IMG/VR virus record: IMGVR_UViG_3300036861_000610
Coordinates: 83,890 to 147,889 of that record
Source of the DNA: a virus
Strand: one strand, 5' to 3'
Length of the DNA stretch: 64,000 nt
The translations under genes were made by a program, and so were the position numbers. The notes beneath the pieces were generated by a model, which worked only from the letters and a program-made list of their open reading frames with translations, was not told the origin of the DNA and ran no database searches. Positions 36,226-56,856 of the stretch are shown one piece after another. Each line of letters begins with the position of its first letter. Within the stretch, counting starts at the first letter, position 1.

Positions 36226-36870
36226 TCAGGAGTCGAGCAGCTTGTTGTCGTAGAGCGTGTAGTCGCTGCGGTAGATAAGCAGATACTTGCCATCGATGCG
36301 CAGCAGGGTGCTCTTCGGGATGTTGGTCGCGAAGTACTCAACCTGGTTGCCGCCGAAGATGGCGATGGGGGAGCCGTTCTGCGACCGAACCATGATTGTG
36401 CGGCTGGTACCGGCCCAGAAGTTGCGGAAGTTCTGCCGCAAATAGTTCAAGAACGGCACACCACGTTCAGTGTTCTCGATGTCGACGGTTGGCGGCAGCT
36501 GGGCGGTGATGTCGCTGAGGCCGTCTTCGACCATGAGCAGCGTCGAGCCAACGTGGTTGATAACACCGCCGCCGACGCTGACTTTGACCACCGATGAGTC
36601 CGCGTTGCTGGTGCCGTCGGGGTTGACCGAGTCGAACGTCCCATCGCGCTGGATGTCGATGGCCGCACCATGGACCCGGTCGAGTGGCTGGCCGAACACG
36701 TTGTAAGTGAGAATGGTGGCCTGACGACCCTTCATCAGCGAGACGAAGTTGCTGACGCTCTTGTCGAAGAGGGCGCAGCCGCCGAGGGTCAGCAGCATGG
36801 CCATAATCGTCAGGCCGGCGACAAACAGGAGGGTCTTGCGCTGTCGCGCCTTACGGAGCAGATCATTCAT
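36226..36870 (-). CDS. Lipoprotein, DUF5052-like
   Basis: Lipobox-like LGGC after a hydrophobic stretch; DSSVV...HVGSTL. Family recalled from memory. Confidence 0.55.
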   Translation of the reverse strand: MNDLLRKARQRKTLLFVAGLTIMAMLLTLGGCALFDKSVSNFVSLMKGRQATILTYNVFGQPLDRVHGAAIDIQRDGTFDSVNPDGTSNADSSVVKVSVGGGVINHVGSTLLMVEDGLSDITAQLPPTVDIENTERGVPFLNYLRQNFRNFWAGTSRTIMVRSQNGSPIAIFGGNQVEYFATNIPKSTLLRIDGKYLLIYRSDYTLYDNKLLDS

Positions 36871-45004: not shown

Positions 45005-45030
45005 CGTCGCACCCCTTCCTGAAATCCCTA

Positions 45031-45090
45031 ACCAGACCATGCCCTGCCGTGCCACGCCGGACCTAACCCGACCGAACCTGACCCCACCGA
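45031..45090 (-). ncRNA. Array A: 12 perfect GGY-NN pentamers (putative guide RNA)
   Basis: + strand accag accat gccct gccgt gccac gccgg accta acccg accga acctg acccc accga; intergenic. Expression as RNA is inferred. Confidence 0.75.
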
Positions 45091-45093
45091 GTT

Positions 45094-45636
45094 TTACTCC
45101 TCGATGCCGTGACGTCGGAGCATCTCGACAAGGCGATCGAGGCGATCATCTTTGACCAAGGCATCCTTCTCCGTGAGAGCCTGGCGCTTGTCCAGCCGAA
45201 CAACCTGACGCTCGGTCTTTAACTGTCGCCGAGTGAGCTGGTTCATCATCTCTTCCTGTCGGGCAAGATGAAGCTCGATGGCGCTAAGCCGGCGACGTTC
45301 GGCCGAGTCGAGGCGAGTCTGGTCCACGAAGGTAACAAGTCGCTTAGCTCGACGCGTGCTTCGCCGAGACTTTGCCTGCTGATTCAGCCCCAGTCGCTCC
45401 TGCTCCCGTGACTCCACCATCCGATAGCCAACCTTGCGAACTCGGTCGAAGGCTCGCAGATGCTCCGTAAGCATGCGACCTGCGGCATAGTAAAAGGCCC
45501 CACGGACAGAGGCCTTCGGAGTACCGGGCAACAGGTTGTGCAGGGTCTCGTCTGAGACCACGTCGTCAATCTGCATGGTCCGCAGGTGGTCAAAGATGAC
45601 CTGCCACTGGGGCCGAGTTTCCTTGCTTTGGAACAT
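45094..45636 (-). CDS. Accessory protein of RAMP locus 1 (winged-helix-like N-terminus, coiled-coil C-terminus)
   Basis: GGAGG RBS; VRKVGYR wing-like motif; lies between arrays B and A. Confidence 0.7.
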   Translation of the reverse strand: MFQSKETRPQWQVIFDHLRTMQIDDVVSDETLHNLLPGTPKASVRGAFYYAAGRMLTEHLRAFDRVRKVGYRMVESREQERLGLNQQAKSRRSTRRAKRLVTFVDQTRLDSAERRRLSAIELHLARQEEMMNQLTRRQLKTERQVVRLDKRQALTEKDALVKDDRLDRLVEMLRRHGIEE

Positions 45637-45650
45637 CTTTTGGCCTCCCC

Positions 45651-45930
45651 ACCTAACCGAACCTAGCCCAACCTAGCCTTGCCCGACCTGACCCAACCGA
45701 ACCAAGCCAAGCCCGAGGCCCCTACCCAGCCCAACCCCACCAAGCCGGGCCTGACCGTACCGAACCACAGAAGCCTTACGGTACCCAACCTCACCGGACC
45801 GAACCGCGCCCAGCCAGGCCATAGAAGCTTGTGCCCCCCGACTCCCTACCAAACCCAGCCATGCCCCACCGGACAATGCCTGACCACGCCTAGCCTGACC
45901 GCACCAAACCACACCATGCGGAACCCAACC
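45651..45930 (-). ncRNA. Array B: about 50 GGY-NN pentamers in 4 blocks of 10-17 units
   Basis: RCC-NN period 5 on +; short linkers including AGAA at 45769 and 45823; begins right after the RAMP stop codon. Confidence 0.75.
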
Positions 45931-45936
45931 AAAAAG

Positions 45937-46527
45937 CTAGACGACTTCTACGGCAGCATCAAAGCGCCCATACTGCTGCCTGTAGTCGCCAAATCCATAA
46001 AGCTTTCCACCGATAACGGCAATATCGGTCAGTTCGTCGGCATCAATGACGCCAGGGTCGAGCACGATGTCAGATTCCATCGACCAGTTCTTGAACATGG
46101 GCCGGCAGCGGTCAATCTTCGCCTGGCCGACACGGGCGGAGCGGAAGTCAACAAACTCACTGGCCCCACTGTCACCCCAGAGCCCTTCAATGGTGCGTGG
46201 GCCTTTGTATAGCAGCGGATGGACAAGTTCGACGATGACGATGCCGCCCTCGATCTTCTTGCCGCGCCGGCCCGATCGAGCAGCTTCGAGAAGGTTCTTG
46301 AAGATCCAGCTGGCCGGGATGTACGGGCCGATGCCTTCCTCGAAGTACAGGCCGCCCTCCCACTCCACGCGCGCAATCTCCAACCGATCCTCGTCAGTGC
46401 GCTTGCTCGACGGCTTGGCCTTGTTGAGGCGCGACATCTCCTTGGCGAAGGGGTCGAGCGGTGAAGCAAGGCGCACGTTGTGCATGAGCAGTGGACGTGT
46501 GCCGGTCGCCGTCAGTCTGACCTTCAT
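45937..46527 (-). CDS. Stand-alone Cas7/RAMP-like protein 1 (196 aa)
   Basis: RAMP-like layout: N-terminal strand with G (LTATGTRPLLMH), PYIP..(I)FK..L, R..VG....R.RP.F..W, C-terminal G-rich loop GFGDYRQQYGRF. RBS GGAGAGAG before ATG 46527. Confidence 0.7.
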   Translation of the reverse strand: MKVRLTATGTRPLLMHNVRLASPLDPFAKEMSRLNKAKPSSKRTDEDRLEIARVEWEGGLYFEEGIGPYIPASWIFKNLLEAARSGRRGKKIEGGIVIVELVHPLLYKGPRTIEGLWGDSGASEFVDFRSARVGQAKIDRCRPMFKNWSMESDIVLDPGVIDADELTDIAVIGGKLYGFGDYRQQYGRFDAAVEVV

Positions 46528-46555
46528 GATGGTTCTCTCTCCAGGAGCTGGTGAA

Positions 46556-46867
46556 CTAGTAGGGTCGACTTTCGGTGAGTAGCCTGGCCACGGTGGCGGC
46601 CGTCTGGCCGGTCTCCCGGGCAATGTCTTGGGGCATCATGCCGTTCTGCCTGGCAGCCCTGGCAGCAGAGCGACGAATGGTGGCAGTTCCGCCCATTAAC
46701 TGATCTCGCATCAGGGCAATAACTTCGCCCGCAATAACGATGGTTTGCACTTCGTCGTGGCCGGTGAGGATAGTGGTCAGGCACGCCCGTAGCTGGGCTT
46801 GGGCTGGTGTGTCGACCCACTCGTCCGGTGGCCTCAGTGTGTCTTCGACGAGTTGGTCTTTGATCAT
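46556..46867 (-). CDS. Small protein with C-terminal helix-turn-helix
   Basis: GGAGG RBS; GMMPQDIARETGQTAATVARLL. Confidence 0.7.
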   Translation of the reverse strand: MIKDQLVEDTLRPPDEWVDTPAQAQLRACLTTILTGHDEVQTIVIAGEVIALMRDQLMGGTATIRRSAARAARQNGMMPQDIARETGQTAATVARLLTESRPY

Positions 46868-46985
46868 GTGGTGGACCTCCTGGTGGTGCGCTAACGCTCT
46901 TGGCGGATGCGAAGATCGTAGCTTAGGGGGACGTCCGGGTCACGATCCTGACCTGCGGTTTTCCCTAGTCCTCCTCGTCGTCACA

Positions 46986-48316
46986 TCACCATGGCGCGGC
47001 CTCATACAGCAGGTCGAACCCGTCGTACTCGGGCAGTAGCTGAAGGTCGCAGCCAGTGCAACTGAGTCCTCGTGGATCTTCCAGATGACACTGGCCGCAG
47101 TCGCACTGGCCCTGCCTGTCCTCGCGCTCCCACCGATGTTCGTGTGGCGGCGCCGATACAGCACTGCCCCCAGCTACGGCGCGCTGTTCCTCGCGGTAAG
47201 CAACCTCATCGGCGTAGTCCCCCAGAATGTCCATGTGGGCAAGAAGCCGGAACCCCCACTGGGCATGCCACTCCCACTGCCAGGATGGCCTCTTGATCCA
47301 CGCAATATCGTCCAGTTCCCCCTCGTACGGCTCAAGGATGTAGTAGCGGCTGTACCCGGGGACCCAGTTCAAGGTGTACATCACCGCGCCGCAGAACCAG
47401 AACCAGAACGGCTTCATCCGCGGCTGGTAGCGGGTCACCCTTCTGCTCCTTCAGCCTCCGACTGTCGCAGCCAGTTCTCGATCATGTCTTTGAGAAGGAC
47501 AGTGAGCATCATGCGCAGGTCGTTTTCGTCCATCACCTGAAGGAAGTAGGCCAGCTGGCCGGGTACACAGTAGGGGGGACAGTCATGTCCGTCTTCACGG
47601 TGGTCTTTGACTATGACCAGGAAGACGTTGATGGCGTCGCGAACAGCCATCACGTTGGAGGTGGCGATGATCTGTTCTTCCAGGTCCAGGTCACGGGTAC
47701 GGAAGTGCGACGCATCCACCAGGGGCGGAACAACCGGCTCTGGACCTTCATTTCGGCGGCGACTCCATGGCCACTTCATCGTCTTCACCTCCCGGGAAAC
47801 GCAGGATTGTGGGCCAGTTCTGCTTCAGTTCTTCAATGTCTTCCGGCGTGAGCGTTCCGTGCCGCTTGCAGTCCCGACATTCTTTGCCTGGATTGTGGCC
47901 CACGGAGTACAGCACGTCGGTATGCCGATTGAACCAGCGACATCGCAGCAGAAATGCCGAGCGAAACACCCGGTCACGCCACCGGGTGTCCCACTCGATC
48001 CGTACATTGCGGAAAATTCTCATGGACTGACGTCCTGGATCATGGCCTCTAGCTTGCGCAAGGTGGCCAACATTGCGTCGTGTTGTTCAATGGGCGTTGG
48101 CGGTTCGTATGGGTCCCGCTGGCACCGGGCGCAGTCACTGACCGGATGGTCATAGACCGTTACGAGGTGGTAGCAGTCAGGTCGGCCGGCAACATTCGGG
48201 TGGCATAGGGGTAGCAAATTATGTTCCCCGAAGCCGCCCTCATAGTCGCCCATCTGGCGTCCACAGTGGGTGCAGACATTGGGCCGGATGAACTCCACCT
48301 CCATTGCGTCCCCCAT
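46986..48316 (-). CDS. Four small hypothetical genes (46986-47438, 47435-47788, 47748-48023, 48020-48316)
   Basis: Overlap packing; Cys/His motifs. Confidence 0.5.
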
Positions 48317-48325
48317 TTCCGGGTT

Positions 48326-48520
48326 TTAGTCGAACTCGCCGGCCTTCACGCCGACCAACCACGCCTTCCATTCCGCGGACGTGAAACGCAGAAGTGGGCC
48401 ATTTGGGTCCTTCGAATCACGCACCAGTCGATCGGTGCCATCGAGTGCAACTTGGACGCATTCCGAGCTGGTGGCACTGTCGCTAGACTTGCGCCACTCC
48501 AGGTCGGTTTGTTCGTTCAT
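48326..48520 (-). CDS. DUF397 protein
   Basis: WRKSS.S....ECVQVA......VRDSKDP.GP.L.FT..EW. Confidence 0.9.
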   Translation of the reverse strand: MNEQTDLEWRKSSDSATSSECVQVALDGTDRLVRDSKDPNGPLLRFTSAEWKAWLVGVKAGEFD

Positions 48521-48533
48521 GAATTCCTCCTTG

Positions 48534-51484
48534 TCACAGGTTTTCTTGAATAATCTTCTTGGCTTCGGCCACCATGCCACTGACCTCGTGCACCGCATTG
48601 CGCAGCGTGCGGTGCGGGTTGCTCGGCAGCTCCAGTTCGGTTACCAGAGTCTCGATGGATTCCCTGATCTCGCTCTCCAGGCCGATGAGCTTGGCGATCT
48701 GCAGGTCAATCTGGTCGCGCTGCCCGGCCATGGTGCGAACCAGTTCAGCACTAGCAGCCTGGCTGGCCAGAAGGGCCTCTTCGATGACCACCCGCAGAGT
48801 CATTGCCTCATTACGATCCAGGCCGAAAGAGTCTTGAATCTGCCGGACGGCGCTTCGATTGGCCCGGTCCAGCTCTTCAGCCTTGGCTTCCAGGACCCGG
48901 ATGCGGTCCTTCTGGCCAATCTCATCGCGGGCCCACTTGGACAGCGTTGCCTGGATATCCTCCAGGCGAACTTCAATCGCCACAGTCACACTCCGACTTC
49001 CTGAAAACGAACACGCCTACGAAGATCAATAGTCCAACGCCAAGGGCCATCAGTACCAGTCCCAGGACCTTGAACGCATCAACGTAGTCGACGGGGTTGA
49101 TAGCGCTGAGGCTATCGAGTACGTTCATGGTGCCATCACCGGTAAAGCTGTCACGTTTATCGCATTCACCCAGGCTGGTTTGGTTCGCTTCTTATTGGAC
49201 CAGGCGCCAGACGTTTTCTCGGTGAGGACCTGGACCTCAATTTCCCAGCCGGTAGGGGTATCGGACCTCGTACGAGTCGCCTCTACCCAGGTGTAGTTGT
49301 AGGTTTCCCGGGCACGAATGAGGCGGACTTCACCGATGGCCATGACCTGGCCGCGGCCGGCGCCGATGCAGTACAGGACTTTGCCGCCGACGGTGAACCG
49401 CTGACCTAGCCAGTCAACCGCGGAGGTGACGTGGGTGAGCCAGGGGCTGCCCCCGTAGGTGCCTTCAACGAAGGCAGGGATGGGGCCGAACTCGGGAGAG
49501 TGTGGCCACCGGAGCTGTTCCTGGGTCATCAGCCGCGCCGGTGTCCTTCGCCGTCAATGCCTACGTCGCCATTGACCCAGACGGCATCCCCGACTTCAAC
49601 GACTGGCCCGGCGGCGTTTGTTGTCGACACGTTCCTGCTCCTTCACCTTCTTCACCATGTCGTCCAAGGTGAGTTCTGTTTGCTCGCTGCGGCCGATGAT
49701 CCCGGCTTGGCAGAGGTGGTCGTAGGCGCCGATGATGCTGGCGTAGCAGATGCCCAGCTCGGCTGCCTTCTGGGCCCGATAGGTGTAGTGCTGGGCTACC
49801 TCAAACCGTTGGTCTGTAAGCACGGCCCACGCCAGGTTCATGCGCTCATGTGCCTCGTCCAGCACAGTGCTGAGTGCTCTGGCGGTGCCGGCCAGCCGAC
49901 TGCGGCCAGAAGAGAAAGCGCTGATGGCTTTCTGCGCCTGCTCGACCCGACGGACCATCGACTGGTACTCAGCGTCACGGTCGATCACCGGACCAGTTCC
50001 TCAATTTCACGGGCCAAGTTGCCTCCACGGGGTGTGTTGCGTTCATGCCATCCGGCTGCGTGCGCGTCTCGTTCCGGCCACTCGATCTGTCGGCGAACCT
50101 TCTCGGCCAACTCCAACAGCACCACCAGGATCTCGTCGTCGTCGCGGCTCTCTTCAACGATGGCGAGCATCCAGTCAGCCACTACACCGAGGACACGGTT
50201 GATGCGCTTCTCCAGCAGCTGCGGCATGCCCGGCGGCGGGTCCACGCCGGGGGTCAGTCTGCTCCACGGCTCGGAGGCGTACAGCATCTCCCGCAGGGTC
50301 TTCACCTGAGCTTTCGTCTCAGGGTCTTCGGCGGGCGCAGGAACCAGCTCGATGATGAAGCCACCGATCTCGACGCCGGCTGAAGCGCTGCCGGCGCCAC
50401 CTGGGTCGTCAGGGTCGAAGCTGTGACGGCTGGTTGGTCCCAGGAGCAGGTCGCCAGACTGGTCTTCCTCAAACATGTGTTTCTCTCTCCAGGATTGCTG
50501 TGCACTGCTTGCATGGCTCGCGTTCAGCGAGGCCCTCGGGATCTGAATGCCACTTCGCTCGGGGCGGGAGTGCGGCCAGGACCTGGCAGCCGCAGACGGC
50601 CGATTCCATGGGCTCGCCGGGTAGGTTTTTGTCGGCCAAGATGATGAGGTGCTTCTTCTTGCCGGTGCGCAGGTAGAACCAGGCGCGCGGGCTCACGGCT
50701 TTGGCCTCCCGGCGGCTCGGCGGCCGGCGACAACCCTGCGGGCTCGCTTCGGACCATCCAGAGAAACCGAGTCGTCGTCGACCATGAAGACGACAGGCGC
50801 GGAGACGGAGGGGCTGTCGCTGGCGAGCATGATGATCTGGATGGGGTTGTTGATCTTGTGTTGGCAGTCGCACCAGGTGCCACCGCGGCAGTCATCATGT
50901 AACTGTTCCCTGCATTTCGGACAAACCATGACCACCTAGTCCTATCTTGTAGAGGGGTTGGGTAGATCTTCCCTCGTCGAGCCCCAACTACGCTAGGGGG
51001 TGGTGGGGGTGTTATTTCCGTGTGCCTGGCAGTCGCCGTCCTCGCTGTGCTGACTGAAGAGGTGACCGCAGGGGCAACGCTGCGTGGGGGTCAGGTGCAG
51101 CGGCACAGTCTTCGGTATCTTCGTCGGCTCGTCGAGCGTCTCCTCCGAACTGTGCCAAAAATTGAACCTCCAGATCGTCTCATTGAGACAGGTGCACTGG
51201 CCGTTGGCGATCTTCTCCTGGTGCTTGAGCCAGCGCTCAGCCTCCAGGTCGTAGGTCTGCTGGCGCATGGTGTGACAGCACTGCTTCCAGCAGGTCCGGT
51301 ACGCCCAGGAGAGGTACCCGATCCAGCTGAGGCCGACGGTGACGACCATGCGTCCCCACTCGTCGGCGCCGAACTGTGGCCAGCCGAACTTGTGGCGCCA
51401 GTGCGGATCCCAGTCGTGGCGGCTGTTCGTCCAGACTCGATCGGAGGTGTACCACTGGTCTTCTTTTCTGGGGCGGTGAGTCAT
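48534..51484 (-). CDS. Hypothetical genes (48534-48989 coiled coil, 49125-49529, 49596-49988, 49985-50476, 50469-~50696, 50693-~50929, 50993-51484)
   Basis: Consistent strand, overlaps and codon bias; no function recognised. Confidence 0.5.
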
Positions 51485-51560
51485 TGTTAGACCCCCTATT
51501 TCCAAATTTTCTGGGAGGCGATTTTCAAATCAACGCATCGATGTACTTAGACTCATGTAT

Positions 51561-52781
51561 GCCTGCCAAGCCAAGCCCCACCTAGCCGAACGTTGCCCTG
51601 CCTGCCGCACCGCGCCTACCGGACCGTGCCGAGCCATGCCATCCCCACTATGGCCTCACCGTGCCTGCCCTGCCGTACCAAGCTTCAACAGACCCAGCCC
51701 CGCCTCACCTGCCCCGCCTCACCGTGCCTGACCAAAACACACCTCGCCTGCCGTGCCTTGCCTAGCCCCGCCTTACCTACCTAGCCACACCTTGTCGTTG
51801 TGGACCCCGCCACGCCTGCCCTGCCAAGCCGAACCATTCCACGCCTGACCGTGCCTGCCGGGCCGCACCTTGCCATGCCAAAGGACGCCGAGCCCTGTCA
51901 CGCCGAACCTGCCGTACCCCACCATTCCCCGCCGAGTCCTACCTCGCCTGCCATGCCACGCCGGGCCGTAACCAACCTTGCCGGATCTTGCCCTGCCTGC
52001 CACGTCATGCCATGTCGAACCTCGCCAAGCCCATCCGAAACTCGCCTGCCCCGCCGCACCCAGCCACACCTTGTCGTTGTGGACCCCGCCTTGTCACGCC
52101 GTGCCATGCCTGCCCTACCACACCTAGTCGGACCCGAACTCGCCTAGCCGATACCCACCGCGCCTGCCCCGCCGTACCTTGACTTGCCGCGCCATGCCAG
52201 AACTAGCCCTCGCCTCGCCTGCCACGCCTTGTGAAACCTAACCCCACCAAACCGAGCCGGACCCCGTCTTGTTAAACCCAGCCAAGCCCTACCCCAGCCA
52301 CGCCTGCCACACCATGCCCCGCCGAGCCTTTCCTCACCACACCGCACCGGGGCTGCCGCACCTAACCTCACCGCGCCATGTCTCGCCATGCCTGCCCAGC
52401 CGTAACGCCCCTCACCGTGCCCAACCTCGCCATGCCTGCCGAACCTTGCCTCGACGTACCCAGCCCTACCGGGTCCTACCGCCACCTCACCGCGCCTGCC
52501 GAACCTGGCCATATGCTGCCGTGCCGAACCCCGCCACGCCTGCCTAGCCATACCTCGCCGAGCCCCGCCCCCCCCTAGCCTGCCTAGCCGCGCCTCGTTT
52601 CACCCCACCGAGCCTTGTCACAACGCGCCACACCTGCCTCACCCAACCGCACCATGCCATGCCATGACGAACCACGCCTGCCGCGCCCTACGATGCCTTG
52701 CCACAACCGGTATTTCCCTGCCATGCCTGCCTTGCCTTGCCGCACCATGCCTAGATAGCCGAGCCGCACCTGCCATGTCCT
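51561..52781 (-). ncRNA. Array C: about 1.2 kb of GGY-NN pentamers divided into about 26 units by 4-nt RCCT breaks (sense GGC-A-GGY)
   Basis: RCC-NN period 5 on +; 27 breaks between 51561 and 52768; starts immediately after the stop of the accessory gene. Confidence 0.8.
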
Positions 52782-53219
52782 TCAGGCTTCAATCAGGACA
52801 CCGACCCGAACTTCACTCTCAACGAGATCCCAGAATTCCTCGAAGTTCTCGTAGCGACGCTTCAAGGCCTCCCAGTCACGTCGCATCTCTGCCCTAAGTA
52901 GGCGCATGATCATTGGATCCTGGATAACGACCGCGGCCGGCTCGTAGGCGTACTTCCTCGTCCCATCGTCCTTTTTCACTGCATGGAAGGCGCGAATGGA
53001 GATGGGGTTCCCCGTCTTGGGGCTGGTGTAGTTCACCCGCACGGACCTGATCAGGTCGTGCGCTTGGACACGGCGGTACTTTTCCGCCGCGATGGTGTTG
53101 TTCCACTCGAACCTTGTGTGGAGTGGGTGACGGTTGTCGCGGGCAACATCCACAACAAGCGCGGGAGTCAGTTCCCCGCGCTCGTCGTAGATGGCCTGCA
53201 GGTGATCCCGCAGACTCAT
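52782..53219 (-). CDS. Accessory protein of RAMP locus 2
   Basis: AGGAG RBS; LTPALVVDVAR...HPLHTRFEWNNTIAAEKYR motif. Confidence 0.75.
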   Translation of the reverse strand: MSLRDHLQAIYDERGELTPALVVDVARDNRHPLHTRFEWNNTIAAEKYRRVQAHDLIRSVRVNYTSPKTGNPISIRAFHAVKKDDGTRKYAYEPAAVVIQDPMIMRLLRAEMRRDWEALKRRYENFEEFWDLVESEVRVGVLIEA

Positions 53220-53242
53220 GGAACTCCTTCTACTGCCGTGTT

Positions 53243-53887
53243 CTACTTCTGGACGTCCTTGTTGGTGAGGACCTCGATGTCACGCTCCGGGTCGATCATG
53301 TAGGTGCCCATGTCGCCCTTCTTCTCCGGCCGCCACTCCCCGACGCCGACGCCCATGCCTCCGGCGTCGATGAGGGACAAGACGGAGGCCTGCGTCAGCT
53401 GTGAGGTCACGTAGGTGACCCGCAGCTCGGTCTTCCACTCCGAGAATTCGGGGCGGTAACGCAGGTCGGTGCCGCCGTTGCCGACGCGCACGACGTCTTC
53501 GCGCTTCTTGGGCTCGCCTTCGATGATGGCGAGCTGCTGCCCATCCACGCCGACCTCACCGCGGAAGAACAGCACCTGCCGGAGCAGGGTCATCGTGACT
53601 CCGGCGAAGAACCGTGCGCCGCCGATGGTCGATGCCTTGAAGGCGATAACCGGAAGCCCGTACGCGCCATCGTTGGTGCGGTAGAACGCCGCCTCGTACT
53701 CGGCGTCGGGGTCCTTCGGCTGCTTGGGGGTCTTGCGCCCCTGCATCGCGTCGAGCATCTGCTTCTTCGCCTTCTCGGAGAAGCGGTGGATGATCAGCGG
53801 CGACGTCCCCACGATGGGGACGATGAGCGTCTCCGCGTCGATGCGAGGGATCTCGATGATGTTGGTTGTCTTTGCTGCCGTTGCCAT
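53243..53887 (-). CDS. Stand-alone Cas7/RAMP-like protein 2 (214 aa)
   Basis: IVGTSPLIIH, YGLPVIAFK, VRVG...DLRYRPEFSEW, G-rich loop AGGMGVGVGEWRPEKKGDMGTY; GGAGGAG RBS; strong codon bias. Confidence 0.75.
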   Translation of the reverse strand: MATAAKTTNIIEIPRIDAETLIVPIVGTSPLIIHRFSEKAKKQMLDAMQGRKTPKQPKDPDAEYEAAFYRTNDGAYGLPVIAFKASTIGGARFFAGVTMTLLRQVLFFRGEVGVDGQQLAIIEGEPKKREDVVRVGNGGTDLRYRPEFSEWKTELRVTYVTSQLTQASVLSLIDAGGMGVGVGEWRPEKKGDMGTYMIDPERDIEVLTNKDVQK

Positions 53888-53924
53888 GGGTTACTCCTCC
53901 AGGAGTGTCTACTTAGGACGTTTC

Positions 53925-54857
53925 CCATGCCGTGCCGCACCATGCCTTCCTCTCCGAGGAGAGGCTGTACCTTTCCTGACTCGCCTGCCTAGACGTGCCA
54001 AGCCTTCCCGGGCCGGGTCTCACCGAGCCAAGCCACACCTCACCTGCCCCACCCCGCCTAGCCTGCCAAACCGCGCCGTGCCACGACGAACCACGCCTGC
54101 CAAGCCATGCCCTGCCTTCACGTACCCCGCCAAACCGAGCCTGCCCTGCCGGACCAAACCCCAACTCCCCGAACCTGGCCACGCCACGCCCCGCGATGCC
54201 TGCCGAACCCCGCCTTACCCGAAAGAGCCGGGACTTGCCACGCCTGCCCTGCCTCGCCGGACGGTGCCTTACCCAAACGAAACGTGCCGTGCCGCGCCTG
54301 CCTTGCCCTACCATTGCTTGCCGCACCGGGCCTAGCCACAACACACCTCACCTGCCGTACCGAACCGCACCGGATCGAGCCGGGCCCTACCTGCCATGCC
54401 TCTCCTAGCCACACCCCGCCTCGCCTGCCATGCCCGACCCAGCCCCTCCTAACCCCTCGGCGCCGTGCCCCACCTGCCCTACCGCTCCGGACCATTACAC
54501 GCCTGACCGTGCCTAGCCACATCCCGCCTGCCTCACCACATCAAGCAAGCCTCGCCACACCTCGCCCTGCCTGCCATGCCACATCGCGCCAAGCCCAGCC
54601 TTACCATTCCTGCCGGACCGAGCCTTGCCAAGCCCCACCTGACCCCTCCTGACCAGACCGTGCCTGCCGGGCCGCACCCCGCCTCGTCCAGCCTCACCTC
54701 ACCTGCCATGTCGTGCCGCATCACGCCACGCCTCAACTCGCCCCACCTGCCATGCCGAGCCGTGCCATTACTAACCACTCCGAGCCCTACCTCACCTGCC
54801 CAGCCCTGCCTAGCCACATGAAGCCGCGCCCTGTGAAGCCCAACCCCACCACGCCTA
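53925..54857 (-). ncRNA. Array D: about 0.9 kb of GGY-NN pentamers with 19 GGC-A-GGY breaks
   Basis: Breaks at 53983, 54042, 54061, 54095, 54139, 54198, 54242, 54296, 54350, 54389, 54423, 54472, 54526, 54569, 54608, 54662, 54701, 54745, 54794. Confidence 0.8.
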
Positions 54858-56856
54858 TTGCCGAGTGTCGATGCTGAACGAGAAGCGGCCAAGACTGATC
54901 ATGAAGGTGAACATGTCGCCGCCCCAGCTGATCCAGACCCAGCCGTTGTCACTTTTGTAGGCGGGTCCCTGCTCGGGACTGCGAGTGAGGATGCGGCGGG
55001 GGATGAAGTTTTTCATGCGGCGGCCTGGTCCTGGACGGTCTGCCACTGGGCCAGCTGCTGCTCGTGCAGCACCTTCCATAGTGGTTCCTCGCCGGCCGTC
55101 CACACCAGGTGTCGGGGTACCTCGTGGGCGCTGTGAATGGCTTGAATGTGGAAGCCGCCGAACTCCCGGCAGACGGGGCACGGTGATGGCTGCGCGGTCA
55201 TGTCTCCTCCTTTGGTTCGCCTTTGCGGGCGATGATTGCCCTGATTTCCTGACAGGAGCGCTTCCACTTCCGAGCCAGACTCAGGCGCAGGGCGCCGATT
55301 CCGTAGTCGTGGACGAATTCGCCGTGCCGCCTCGCCCGGTACTCCAGGTAGATCCTCTTCTCGGGCGTCTGCCCCATGTCCGTACCCTTCTAGTTTTCTG
55401 GCTCTCCAACGGCCTCGATCAGGGTGCCGAGGGCAGCGTCAATGCGCAGGAGCTTGGCTTTCTGGTCGGCGACCTTGACCCGCAGTGCCCGGCTCTCTTC
55501 TCTGATGCGACGCAGCTCCGCCGCCTGGTCGAGGCTGCCTTGGGTCTGGCGAACGATGAGGGATTCGCCCAACTCCTGAATCAAAGTCCTCAGGGCATCG
55601 GCAGTGCTGTCGACCCATTTTCCGCGGAAAACCCTAACTCCTGAAGCTGTTTTAGTGACAAGGGCGGCGCGGACGAGGGTGCCGTCGGTGCCGTTGCCCA
55701 CCTCGTAGCGCAGTTCGATGGTCTCGTCGTTCACCTCGCGTTGCATATCCTCTCCTTCGCCGTTCATTGCTCGACGCATTGCTTCCACTTCTTCGGGAGG
55801 AAGTCGATGAACAATCAGCGGCTTGGTGCCGATGAGGATAAGCGGATCGTCTGGGCCCTTACTCACGCTTGACCCACCTTCTGGGTGCACAGGTGCTTGG
55901 TGGAGGCCTCAACGAGGTCAGCGACGCTCATGCCTGGAGTAATGGTCATGACGTCGCAGACGGGCTCATCGTCGCCGCGGTCGTGTACCAGGTAGGCGTG
56001 CCGGGAGGTGAACACGTACTCGTCGAGGCCTTCCAGGTCGATGTGGTGGGGGCCCAGGTCGGCTTCGTCGGCGATGAAGAAGTCGTCGAGGAACCGACGT
56101 TCCTCTTCGGCGACTTCGTGCTCGAATTCGTCGGGCCAATAGTCGGCCATCTCGGCTTCGGTGCCGCCGGCCTCGACTGCCTTGGTTTCCTGCTTACCGG
56201 TCATGGGGGCTCCAGTGATGGGGGTCGAGGCGGCAGCCAGTGACGCAAACGATTGATCGAGTCTGATGAGACGTTTGATGTCGTCCATGCGGTAGAAGCC
56301 TTTGATGCCGGCGCAGAGGAACACGATGAACGGCAGCATCCACCAGCCGTAGTCGTCGATGTACCGGACGAAGCCGAAGAAGAGCGCGAAGAAGAAGCTC
56401 ATGCCCGTCGCGATGATGCTGCAGTTCTTCCACTCCTCGCGCACAGGGATGGCGCTGGCCAAAAGAAAGGCGGCCAGCCCCAGCACAGTGGCAAGGATAA
56501 GGAGGACGGTGCGGGTCAGCAGGATGCCCATGTCACTTCTTTCCCTTGTCGTCGTCTTTGATGATGGGCGGGTGCCAGAGCCCTGACGTCAGCGGGTCGG
56601 GGCCGACGTACAGCCGGCAGGCGCAAGCGCCGATCTTGTCGTCGTACTTGTTGAAGACGTCGACCTTGCACTTGTAGCCGCCGTTCTCGTGGGCGCCATA
56701 TACGTGGCCACACAGGCATTTCGGCGGAGGGGTTGGAGGGGCTGGTCGCTTAATGTCCCGGGTGTAGATGCGCCCCAGGAGATAGCCCAAAAGCGCCGAG
56801 AAGATCGAGAACACAGCCTGCATTAAGCCAATGGCAATGACGATGCCGACATTCAT
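54855..56856 (-). CDS. Small hypothetical and membrane genes (54855-55016, 55013-55201, 55390-~55866, 55863-56531, 56533-56856)
   Basis: Overlap packing and RBSs; transmembrane segments in the last two. Confidence 0.5.

What the first reader, a model, noticed from the sequence alone, without database searches (positions are those of the whole stretch)
51561..52781. Array C: a library of about 26 distinct putative guides
Seen: 27 breaks with spacings mostly 39/44/49/54 and a few single-base indels. Almost every unit has a different NN string, unlike a slippage microsatellite. With array D this gives about 45 units at locus 2. I found no convincing self-match by eye for these units. Inference: they record external targets such as competing phages, plasmids or host defence genes.
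Basis: partly seen in the sequence, partly recalled or inferred. Interest (0 to 1): 0.75.

Follow-up and report, generated by a model that had tools for sequence, protein, structure and literature searches.

The report
Phage VIPR staggered guide-RNA array

Summary
Window 51556-52785 is a strict 5-nt-periodic tract. It reads GGY-NN on the minus (gene-sense) strand and is split by 26 GGCA|GGY register breaks into about 25 units with nearly all-different NN strings.

It is one of five such arrays in a 148-kb uncultured phage that probably infects actinobacteria. The arrays flank a gene whose family profile matches the solved SUSP1 Vipr protein (E 1e-20), with the GGY-contacting residues conserved and a Cas7/Csm3-like predicted fold. 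A small winged-helix-like partner gene sits beside it.

More than 119 IMG/VR phage contigs carry the same array + vipr + partner module, always on one strand. So do the cultured phages Saal (Mycobacterium) and Pipp and ODay (Gordonia).

This is the VIPR system (bioRxiv 10.64898/2026.04.26.720920) in its "staggered array" form: a new member of a known kind. This scan has already noted VIPR on other DNA (568 notes in at least 375 genomes).

There are no self-targets. Exact 1-nt-skip searches with eight guides gave no more hits than chance. The one perfect match, a capsid gene of Bcep1-like phages, is most likely chance. A close relative shares only one whole guide and two fragments, so guide content turns over fast.

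The parts
51556..52785 (-). Array C: staggered vrRNA array of about 25 guides, each 5-12 GGY-NN pentamers (two stretches of 85-88 nt lack a clean break) followed by a 4-nt GGCA/GGTA register break. It lies between the stop of the vap-like gene and the next gene (50993-51505).
52782..53219 (-). vap-like accessory gene (145 aa, phrog_15946). Found beside the arrays in 77 of about 120 array-bearing loci. The N-terminal ~95 residues are predicted to be winged-helix-like.
53243..53887 (-). vipr-2 (214 aa, phrog_4652): a RAMP/Cas7-like protein homologous to SUSP1 Vipr, with the GGY-binding residues conserved.
53915..54865 (-). Array D: staggered vrRNA array of about 19 guides directly upstream of vipr-2 on the same strand.
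45937..46623 (-). vipr-1 (228 aa, phrog_4652): a second, very divergent Vipr paralog (18-24% identity to vipr-2; G-loop GFGDYR).
45640..45940 (-). Array B: about 55 mostly GGT-NN pentamers in three blocks, without GGCA breaks, directly downstream of vipr-1.
45094..45636 (-). 180-aa gene (phrog_5926) between arrays B and A. It is not related to the vap-like family. It may be an accessory gene of locus 1; function unknown.
45025..45100 (-). Array A: a single clean tract of 12 GGY-NN pentamers, the size of one canonical vrRNA.

Best explanation
Array C is a multi-guide gene for VIPR RNAs (vrRNAs). It is transcribed from the minus strand together with vipr-2 and the vap-like gene, as a G-rich RNA of GGY-NN pentamers. 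By analogy with the solved SUSP1 complex, one Vipr protomer binds each pentamer. It buries G1, G2 and Y3 and presents N4-N5, and the filament pairs those dinucleotides with double-stranded DNA that reads NN-x-NN-x (one base skipped, usually the codon wobble). Binding silences transcription of a competing mobile element. Here the guides lie head to tail with no tail or ribozyme between them. Each ends in GGCA, whose following G is also the first G of the next guide, so the pentamer register shifts by one base. This fits the preprint's 'staggered arrays with overlapping vrRNAs'. Shown here: the anatomy of the array, the homology and conserved RNA-contact residues of Vipr, and the strict co-occurrence and co-orientation of array, vipr and partner gene in over 100 phage contigs. 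Inferred: transcription, processing at the breaks, the 1-nt skip rule for this subtype, and the nature of the targets.
For: - A profile of 56 phrog_4652 proteins from array-bearing loci hits PDB 36pp 'SUSP1 Vipr protein' at E 9.6e-21 over residues 3-189. The window protein alone hits at E 4.6e-5.
- The SUSP1 residues reported to hold GGY (H17, R138, D177, W178, R179; paper 10.64898/2026.04.26.720927) align with a conserved H, an invariant R145, and E184-W185-R186 here.
- The AlphaFold model (pLDDT 93.8) matches Csm3/Cmr/type VII Cas7 subunits (Foldseek E about 1e-5, TM 0.45-0.55).
- A pattern spanning one break (CCNNNCC..CCTGCC..) finds at least 119 IMG/VR contigs, and nearly all carry true period-5 arrays.
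- ORF clustering finds phrog_4652 in 87 and phrog_15946 in 77 of about 120 loci, many of which are cut at contig ends. In all but one locus these genes lie on the strand where the neighbouring array is G-rich.
- Across those loci 83% of 631 break-to-break distances are 5n+4, peaking at 49, 54, 44 and 59 nt. That is 8-11 pentamers per guide, close to the published 9-16.
- The solo array E ends in a strong terminator hairpin on its G-rich strand (-42 kcal/mol, z -8.5), which supports transcription of that strand.
- There is no self-targeting, as the preprint also reports.
- In relative L009, one D guide keeps 9 identical NN pairs while GGY letters changed (GGCGT/GGTGT, GTTGG/GGCGG). That pattern is expected if NN is the selected part.
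Against: - No RNA data exist for this phage or for any staggered array. The preprint says sRNA-seq confirmed only the ribozyme-interspersed and single-guide architectures.
- About a quarter of the pentamers in C depart from GGY, and several units have only 5-8 pentamers, fewer than the published 9-16, so some guides may be decayed.
- No natural target was established. Eight guides searched by exact 1-nt-skip patterns gave hit numbers at chance level.
- The vap-like assignment rests on synteny and a middling fold match (Z 5-5.9).
- The VIPR type (I-VII) could not be assigned because the preprint's supplementary tables are not held.
Confidence: 0.9

Rival explanations
1. The arrays are real vrRNA-like sequences, but many units are decoys, relics or slippage products, and not working guides. 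They could soak up Vipr, including a rival's Vipr, or be dead copies kept by tandem duplication.
For: About 23% of pentamers in C are not xxRCC. Some units have 2-5 pentamers. Relative L009 carries 11 tandem copies of a 14-nt two-pentamer unit. Part of one guide in C is duplicated in another. Published satellites use solo vrRNAs to redirect a phage's Vipr (10.64898/2026.10.15.759431).
Against: NN strings are almost all different and of high entropy. Break spacing is tightly 5n+4 across the family. One guide is conserved at NN but not at GGY between relatives.
Confidence: 0.07
2. The tract is a G-rich RNA or a C-rich/G-rich DNA element that acts through structure or another protein, not as a guide. 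Candidates are a sponge for a 5-nt-register RNA-binding ring (TRAP-like), two-tier G-quadruplexes or an i-motif, an R-loop-forming switch-like region, a Rho-loading decoy on the C-rich strand, or a Chi-like array.
For: The tract has a strong strand asymmetry (GC skew about -0.4). It has GG every 5 nt, and the break motif GGCAGGC recurs. I held these ideas before the protein was identified.
Against: None of these ideas predicts the obligate neighbour gene being a Vipr homologue with conserved GGY-binding residues. None predicts free variation of exactly the two letters that the solved complex presents for pairing.
Confidence: 0.02
3. The tract is a neutral pentanucleotide satellite made by slippage, with no function.
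For: Tandem expansion does occur in the relative, and arrays differ in length between relatives.
Against: A slippage satellite would repeat the whole unit. Here three positions are fixed and two are near-random (3.84 bits). The same design, break motif and neighbour genes recur in over 100 unrelated phage contigs with GC from 36 to 73%.
Confidence: 0.01

Closest known systems
VIPR systems with 'staggered' vrRNA arrays (bioRxiv 10.64898/2026.04.26.720920, text and legend of fig. S18)
   Same: A lone Vipr RAMP gene plus a small accessory gene, flanked by intergenic GGY/NN pentamer tracts on the same strand. Successive guides overlap by one base, so the end of one marks the start of the next (here GGCA|GGC).
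   Different: I could not see the figure or the tables, so the match rests on the legend's wording. This architecture was not confirmed by RNA sequencing in the preprint. This phage has an unusually large set: about 25 guides in C, 19 in D and 7 in a solo array, plus a second divergent Vipr with unbroken arrays. Together that is about 3.1 kb, or 2% of the genome.
Type II VIPR of Escherichia phage SUSP1 (Vipr-vrRNA filament; PDB 36pp; 10.64898/2026.04.26.720927)
   Same: A homologous protein (profile E 1e-20) with the same GGY-contact residues, the same pentamer code, and a neighbouring small predicted DNA-binding partner.
   Different: SUSP1 has four separate vrRNAs of about 100 nt, each with 9-16 repeats and a conserved 3' pseudoknot tail. 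Array C has no tails, shorter guides and dozens of them. The host lineage also differs (Enterobacteria against probable Actinomycetota).
Class 1 CRISPR-Cas (Cas7/Csm3 backbone on crRNA)
   Same: A RAMP fold (Foldseek best hits are Csm3, Cmr and type VII Cas7), one protomer per fixed number of guide nucleotides, and many guides in one array.
   Different: There are no repeat-spacer units, no cas1/cas2 or other cas genes, and no PADLOC or Pfam hit. Guide information is non-contiguous (2 of every 5 nt). The element is phage-borne.
Solo (orphan) vrRNA loci of satellites and VIPR-null phages (10.64898/2026.10.15.759431)
   Same: Array E (genome 61340-61645, outside the window) is a stand-alone 7-guide array with its own terminator, about 70 kb from either vipr gene.
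   Different: This phage does encode Vipr, so E is a detached array of a VIPR-positive phage and not a hijacking guide of a VIPR-null element.

Membership tests
VIPR system | A Vipr protein (minimal RAMP: RRM core, G-loop, thumb) is encoded next to the repeats | tested here: met
   Profile A1 against PDB 36pp SUSP1 Vipr gives E 9.6e-21 over 179 profile positions. The AF2 model (pLDDT 93.8) matches Csm3/Cas7 subunits. The gene lies 28 nt from array D and one gene from array C.
VIPR system | Residues that hold G1, G2 and Y3 in the solved complex are conserved (H17, R138, D177, W178, R179 of SUSP1) | tested here: met
   They align with a conserved H in PLIxH, an invariant R145, and E184-W185-R186 (R186 invariant, W185 in the consensus) in 56 family members. 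Paralog vipr-1 has R and G-F-G-D-Y-R at these positions.
VIPR system | vrRNA genes are tandem pentamers with conserved GGY alternating with hypervariable NN, 9-16 repeats per guide | tested here: met
   G1 94%, G2 84%, Y3 93%; NN 3.84 bits. Guides in C have 5-12 pentamers, mostly 7-10, plus the terminal GGCA(G). The family-wide modes of 49-54 nt correspond to 9-10 pentamers plus GGCA. This is the lower edge of the published range.
VIPR system | Repeats lie in intergenic DNA flanking vipr, on the same strand, with a vap accessory gene | tested here: met
   Co-orientation holds in all but one of about 100 loci that have both. phrog_15946 sits beside the arrays in 77 loci. Its N-terminal domain resembles winged-helix DNA binders at Z 5-5.9 only, so 'vap' is a synteny-based call.
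VIPR system | vrRNAs are expressed, processed and bound by Vipr | not testable with these tools
   There are no RNA data. The only indirect support is a terminator after solo array E on the G-rich strand.
VIPR system | Guides match natural DNA targets by the 1-nt skip rule, with no self-targets | tested here: inconclusive
   No self-targets. Exact xNN scans gave: IMG/VR 0, 0, 0, 26 (16-nt seed, about the chance number), 0, 0; metagenomes 2 distinct hits; GTDB genomes 0. One 18/18 hit in a capsid gene is judged chance.
VIPR type II (SUSP1-like) architecture | Each vrRNA ends in a conserved structured 3' tail (pseudoknot) | tested here: not met
   Only 4 nt (GGCA) separate guides in C, D and E. 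The sequence after array A does not fold better than shuffles (z -1.1). The locus is therefore filed under the staggered architecture, not type II.
CRISPR-Cas | A repeat-spacer array with cas1/cas2 or other cas genes | tested here: not met
   There is no direct repeat longer than the pentamer. The neighbour genes have no Pfam or PADLOC hit.

The most novel reading that the evidence does not exclude
Staggered arrays may work differently from the characterised type II vrRNAs. With no tail, ribozyme or visible processing signal other than a one-base register slip, the roughly 1.2-kb transcript might be measured out by Vipr itself. In that case each GGCA break would end one filament and start the next, or one transcript would carry about 25 DNA-binding modules. 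The near-complete replacement of guides between two close relatives, with no adaptation gene in sight, would then point to an unknown way of making new guides. The near-absence of C at the first variable position (CG and CT almost never occur) would be a rule of this subtype's code.
Probability: 0.12. Interest if true: 0.7.

Novelty: new member of a known kind. Interest (0 to 1): 0.3.

Why it matters
The finding independently recovers, from raw sequence, the logic of a system published only months ago. It adds a well-mapped example of the one VIPR array architecture that has not been checked experimentally.

The work also shows that the same module sits in cultured phages of harmless laboratory hosts: Mycobacterium phage Saal and other Cheoctovirus/cluster F phages, and Gordonia phages Pipp, UmaThurman, ODay and Ecliptus. 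In Pipp the array is annotated as a protein gene, and in Saal the vipr gene's annotated start lies inside it. That makes processing and targeting of staggered arrays directly testable.

For this phage, about 2% of the genome goes to some 55 guides and two very different Vipr proteins, which implies heavy investment in conflict with other genetic elements. Which elements those are remains open.

Tried and rejected
**Ideas held before the protein was identified, all dropped once the Vipr homology and synteny appeared**
- Protein coding. A 5-nt period and 5n+4 units give no frame, and there are only short ORFs.
- A TRAP-like ring sponge.
- G-quadruplex or i-motif.
- A switch-region-like R-loop origin.
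- A Rho decoy.
- A Chi-like array.

**Leads that led nowhere**
- The Tweety gp54 repeats of cluster F phages are a 12-nt coding repeat and unrelated.
- Rfam has no family here, and Pfam and PADLOC give nothing for the neighbour genes.
- The 180-aa gene between arrays A and B is not related to the vap-like family.
- No close vipr-2 relative was found in GTDB genomes, and the profile was too diverse for that scan. The host could therefore not be pinned down, and no bacterial pangenome could be searched with mismatches.

**Target hunt**
- All guides were tested against the phage's own genome and 1.05 Mb of held phage loci and did no better than shuffled guides.
- The guide at window 52305-52349 matches 18/18 NN, with the skips at wobble positions, in the major head gene (phrog_264) of two IMG/VR phages. 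I rejected this as a target for four reasons. About 1.6 such hits are expected by chance: the 16-nt core gave 26 hits. No other guide converges on those three phage genomes. This phage has no such capsid gene. All cultured relatives of that capsid infect Proteobacteria, such as Bcep1 and Xanthomonas, Acinetobacter and Pseudomonas phages.
- The D guide conserved in the relative hits a tyrosine-recombinase gene on a three-recombinase metagenome contig, but with the skip at codon position 1 and no second guide nearby. I treat this as chance too.
- A composition test classed 36 of 47 guides as 'codon positions 1,2-like', against 52% for uniform random strings. The result is driven by the low GC of NN and the lack of CG, so it is not independent evidence of coding targets.

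Full report
**1. What is in the sequence**

Window 51556-52785 lies between two minus-strand genes, 52782-53219 and 50993-51505. It has a GC skew of about -0.4. Identity at lag 5 is 0.48, against 0.21-0.32 at lags that are neither multiples of 5 nor one short of them.

A dynamic-programming parse gives pentamers that read N-N-R-C-C on the plus strand, which is G-G-Y-N-N on the gene-sense strand. These are interrupted by 4-nt units TGCC (GGCA in gene sense).

Over all arrays of the genome there are 510 pentamers. G1 is kept in 94%, G2 in 84% and Y3 in 93%, while the NN pair carries 3.84 of 4 bits.

Array C has 26 GG[CT]A|GGY boundaries and about 25 units, mostly 39, 44, 49 or 54 nt long. The NN strings are essentially all different: 3 pairs share 4 or more consecutive NN, against a shuffled mean of 1.6.

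**2. The rest of the genome**

The window is the last 64 kb of a 147,889-bp IMG/VR virus record. Only five tracts in that genome show the rhythm:

| Array | Position | Notes |
|---|---|---|
| A | window 45025-45100 | 12 clean pentamers |
| B | window 45640-45940 | about 55 pentamers, no breaks |
| C | window 51556-52785 | about 25 guides |
| D | window 53915-54865 | 19 units |
| E | genome 61340-61645, plus strand, outside the window | 7 units, stand-alone |

Array E ends in a hairpin plus U-tract on its G-rich strand (-42 kcal/mol, z -8.5). The G-rich strand is therefore the transcribed one.

**3. The neighbours**

Two paralogous genes of phrog_4652 lie next to arrays D and B (53243-53887 and 45937-46623, both minus strand). 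A phrog_15946 gene (52782-53219) lies between vipr-2 and array C. None of these has a Pfam or PADLOC hit.

**4. Relatives and synteny**

Their GC ranges from 36 to 73%, and nearly all carry genuine period-5 arrays of 0.2-1.6 kb.

I clustered all ORFs within 4 kb of those arrays. The phrog_4652 family appears in 87 loci and the phrog_15946 family in 77 loci, out of about 120; many loci are cut at the array by contig ends. With each array oriented G-rich, both genes are on the same strand in all but one locus. The commonest order is vipr, partner, array.

Break-to-break distances across these loci are 5n+4 in 83% of 631 cases, with modes at 49, 54, 44 and 59 nt.

Cultured phages carry the module too:
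- Mycobacterium phage Saal has four guides just upstream of gp51, and the annotated start of gp51 lies inside the array.
- Gordonia phage Pipp has four to five guides that are annotated as gp43.
- Gordonia phage ODay has three guides between gp19 and gp20.

**5. Identification**

A profile of 56 phrog_4652 proteins hits one solved structure, PDB 36pp 'SUSP1 Vipr protein', at E 9.6e-21.

That led to three 2026 preprints on VIPR (Viral Interference Programmable Repeat) systems. They describe the following:
- A minimal RAMP protein, Vipr, polymerises on a vrRNA made of GGY/NN pentamers, one protomer per pentamer.
[quoted passage not shown] - Binding silences transcription.
- Natural targets are competing satellites, prophages and other VIPR loci.
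- A small vap gene accompanies vipr.
- There are seven types, and array architectures include 'staggered arrays with overlapping vrRNAs' in which guides derive from 1-nt overlapping positions.

The GGCA|GGC break fits that description. GGCAG is a last pentamer whose final G is also the first G of the next guide.

The SUSP1 residues reported to hold GGY (H17, R138, D177, W178, R179) align with conserved H, R145 and E184-W185-R186 here. The AlphaFold model (pLDDT 93.8) finds Csm3, Cmr and type VII Cas7 subunits as its best folds.

The partner protein (pLDDT 91.1) has no Foldseek match. Its first ~95 residues align with many winged-helix DNA-binding domains at Z 5-5.9. That agrees with the preprint's 'WH-like' vap proteins, but it is not strong evidence.

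The two Vipr paralogs of this phage share only 18-24% identity. They go with different array styles: unbroken GGT-rich arrays against GGCA-punctuated GGC-rich arrays. The phage therefore carries two distinct VIPR systems.

**6. Evolution of the array**

One close relative was found: L009, a 158-kb IMG/VR contig whose Vipr is 94% identical and whose flanks are 70-76% identical at the DNA level. It has arrays at the same two positions, but they are about half as long.

A unit-level alignment shows how little is shared. One D guide is conserved over 9 NN pairs while some GGY letters changed. Two short fragments of C guides are also shared. Everything else differs.

L009's C array also contains 11 tandem copies of a 14-nt two-pentamer unit. 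In our array C, part of one guide is duplicated in another. Guide content therefore turns over fast, partly by duplication.

**7. Targets**

I applied the published rule, replacing GGY with one wildcard.

- Against the phage's own genome, the best matches equal those of shuffled guides at every skip length. The preprint likewise reports no self-targeting.
- Against 1.05 Mb of held phage loci, including over 100 other VIPR loci, there was no excess either.

Exact scans of the public collections gave these results:

| Collection | Guides searched | Hits |
|---|---|---|
| IMG/VR | four 20-nt guides | 0 each |
| IMG/VR | one 18-nt guide | 0 |
| IMG/VR | one 16-nt seed | 26 |
| JGI metagenomes | the conserved D guide | 2 distinct sequences |
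| GTDB genomes | one 22-nt guide | 0 |

The 26 hits for the 16-nt seed calibrate chance in IMG/VR at about 26 per 16 nt, which is 1.6 per 18 nt and 0.1 per 20 nt.

Within the 26 seed hits, two homologous phages match the whole 9-pentamer guide at window 52305-52349 (18/18 NN) in their major head gene. The skips are at wobble positions and the wobble bases differ between the two. This looks like the published pattern, but I judge it to be chance for four reasons:
- The number of hits is what chance predicts.
- No other guide maps to the three full genomes that I fetched.
- This phage has no such capsid gene.
- All cultured relatives of that capsid infect Proteobacteria. The closest cultured Vipr relatives of this phage are in Gordonia and Mycobacterium phages.

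The metagenome hit lies in a tyrosine recombinase, but the skip falls on codon position 1 and no other guide hits that contig.

No excess of hits has therefore been shown. The search was limited to exact matches for eight of about 55 guides.

**8. An oddity in the code**

In guide sense, the first variable letter is C in only about 10% of pentamers. CG (3 cases) and CT (4 cases) are almost absent. NN is 46-49% GC in a 62% GC genome.

A likelihood test classes 36 of 47 guides as 'codon positions 1,2-like', against 52% for uniform random strings. This rests on composition alone, and I do not count it as evidence for coding targets.

**9. Verdict**

The system is the recently described VIPR in its staggered-array form. 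This scan has met VIPR many times on other DNA (568 notes in at least 375 genomes), so this is a new member of a known kind.

What remains open:
- how staggered arrays are processed;
- why C is avoided at the first variable position;
- where new guides come from;
- what these ~55 guides hit.

Noticed in passing
genome 61340-61700 (outside the window; locus L008 5340-5700): A stand-alone 7-guide staggered array (E) lies on the plus strand in a divergent intergenic region, about 70 kb from either vipr gene. It is followed by a strong, probably bidirectional terminator hairpin (-42 kcal/mol, z -8.5).
   Followed up: partly
window 45937-46623 and 53243-53887: One phage carries two Vipr paralogs that share only 18-24% identity. 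Each has its own style of array: unbroken GGT-rich A/B against GGCA-punctuated C/D. The gene between A and B (45094-45636, phrog_5926) is unrelated to the vap-like gene of locus 2.
   Followed up: partly
L009 7270-7600 (IMGVR_UViG_3300037483_001116): The close relative's counterpart of array C contains 11 tandem copies of a 14-nt unit (two pentamers plus GGCA/GGTA) and a run of alternating GGCGA/GGCAT-type pentamers. These look like slippage-type expansions inside a guide array.
   Followed up: no
L131 3616-3860 (Mycobacterium phage Saal, NC_023580 about 36588-36832); L130 4620-4840 (Gordonia phage Pipp); L132 4629-4790 (Gordonia phage ODay): Cultured actinophages carry 3-5-guide staggered arrays beside their phrog_4652 gene. 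In Pipp the array is annotated as protein gp43. In Saal the annotated start of gp51 lies inside the array, about 150 nt upstream of the likely true start.
   Followed up: partly
all five arrays (window 45025-54865 and genome 61340-61645): The first variable letter of the pentamer (guide sense) is C in only about 10% of units. NN = CG and CT are almost absent. NN is 46-49% GC in a 62% GC genome. This is unexplained.
   Followed up: partly
window 51786-51812 and 52068-52094: A 27-nt stretch, including two non-GGY pentamers, occurs in two different guides of array C (shared NN: GG CC AC AA GT). This is an internal duplication of part of a guide.
   Followed up: no
L134 371-4003 (metagenome contig Ga0184623_10010439): The contig hit by the conserved D guide appears to carry three or four consecutive minus-strand ORFs, at least one of which is a tyrosine recombinase (PF00589). 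The layout resembles a recombinase-in-trio element.
   Followed up: no
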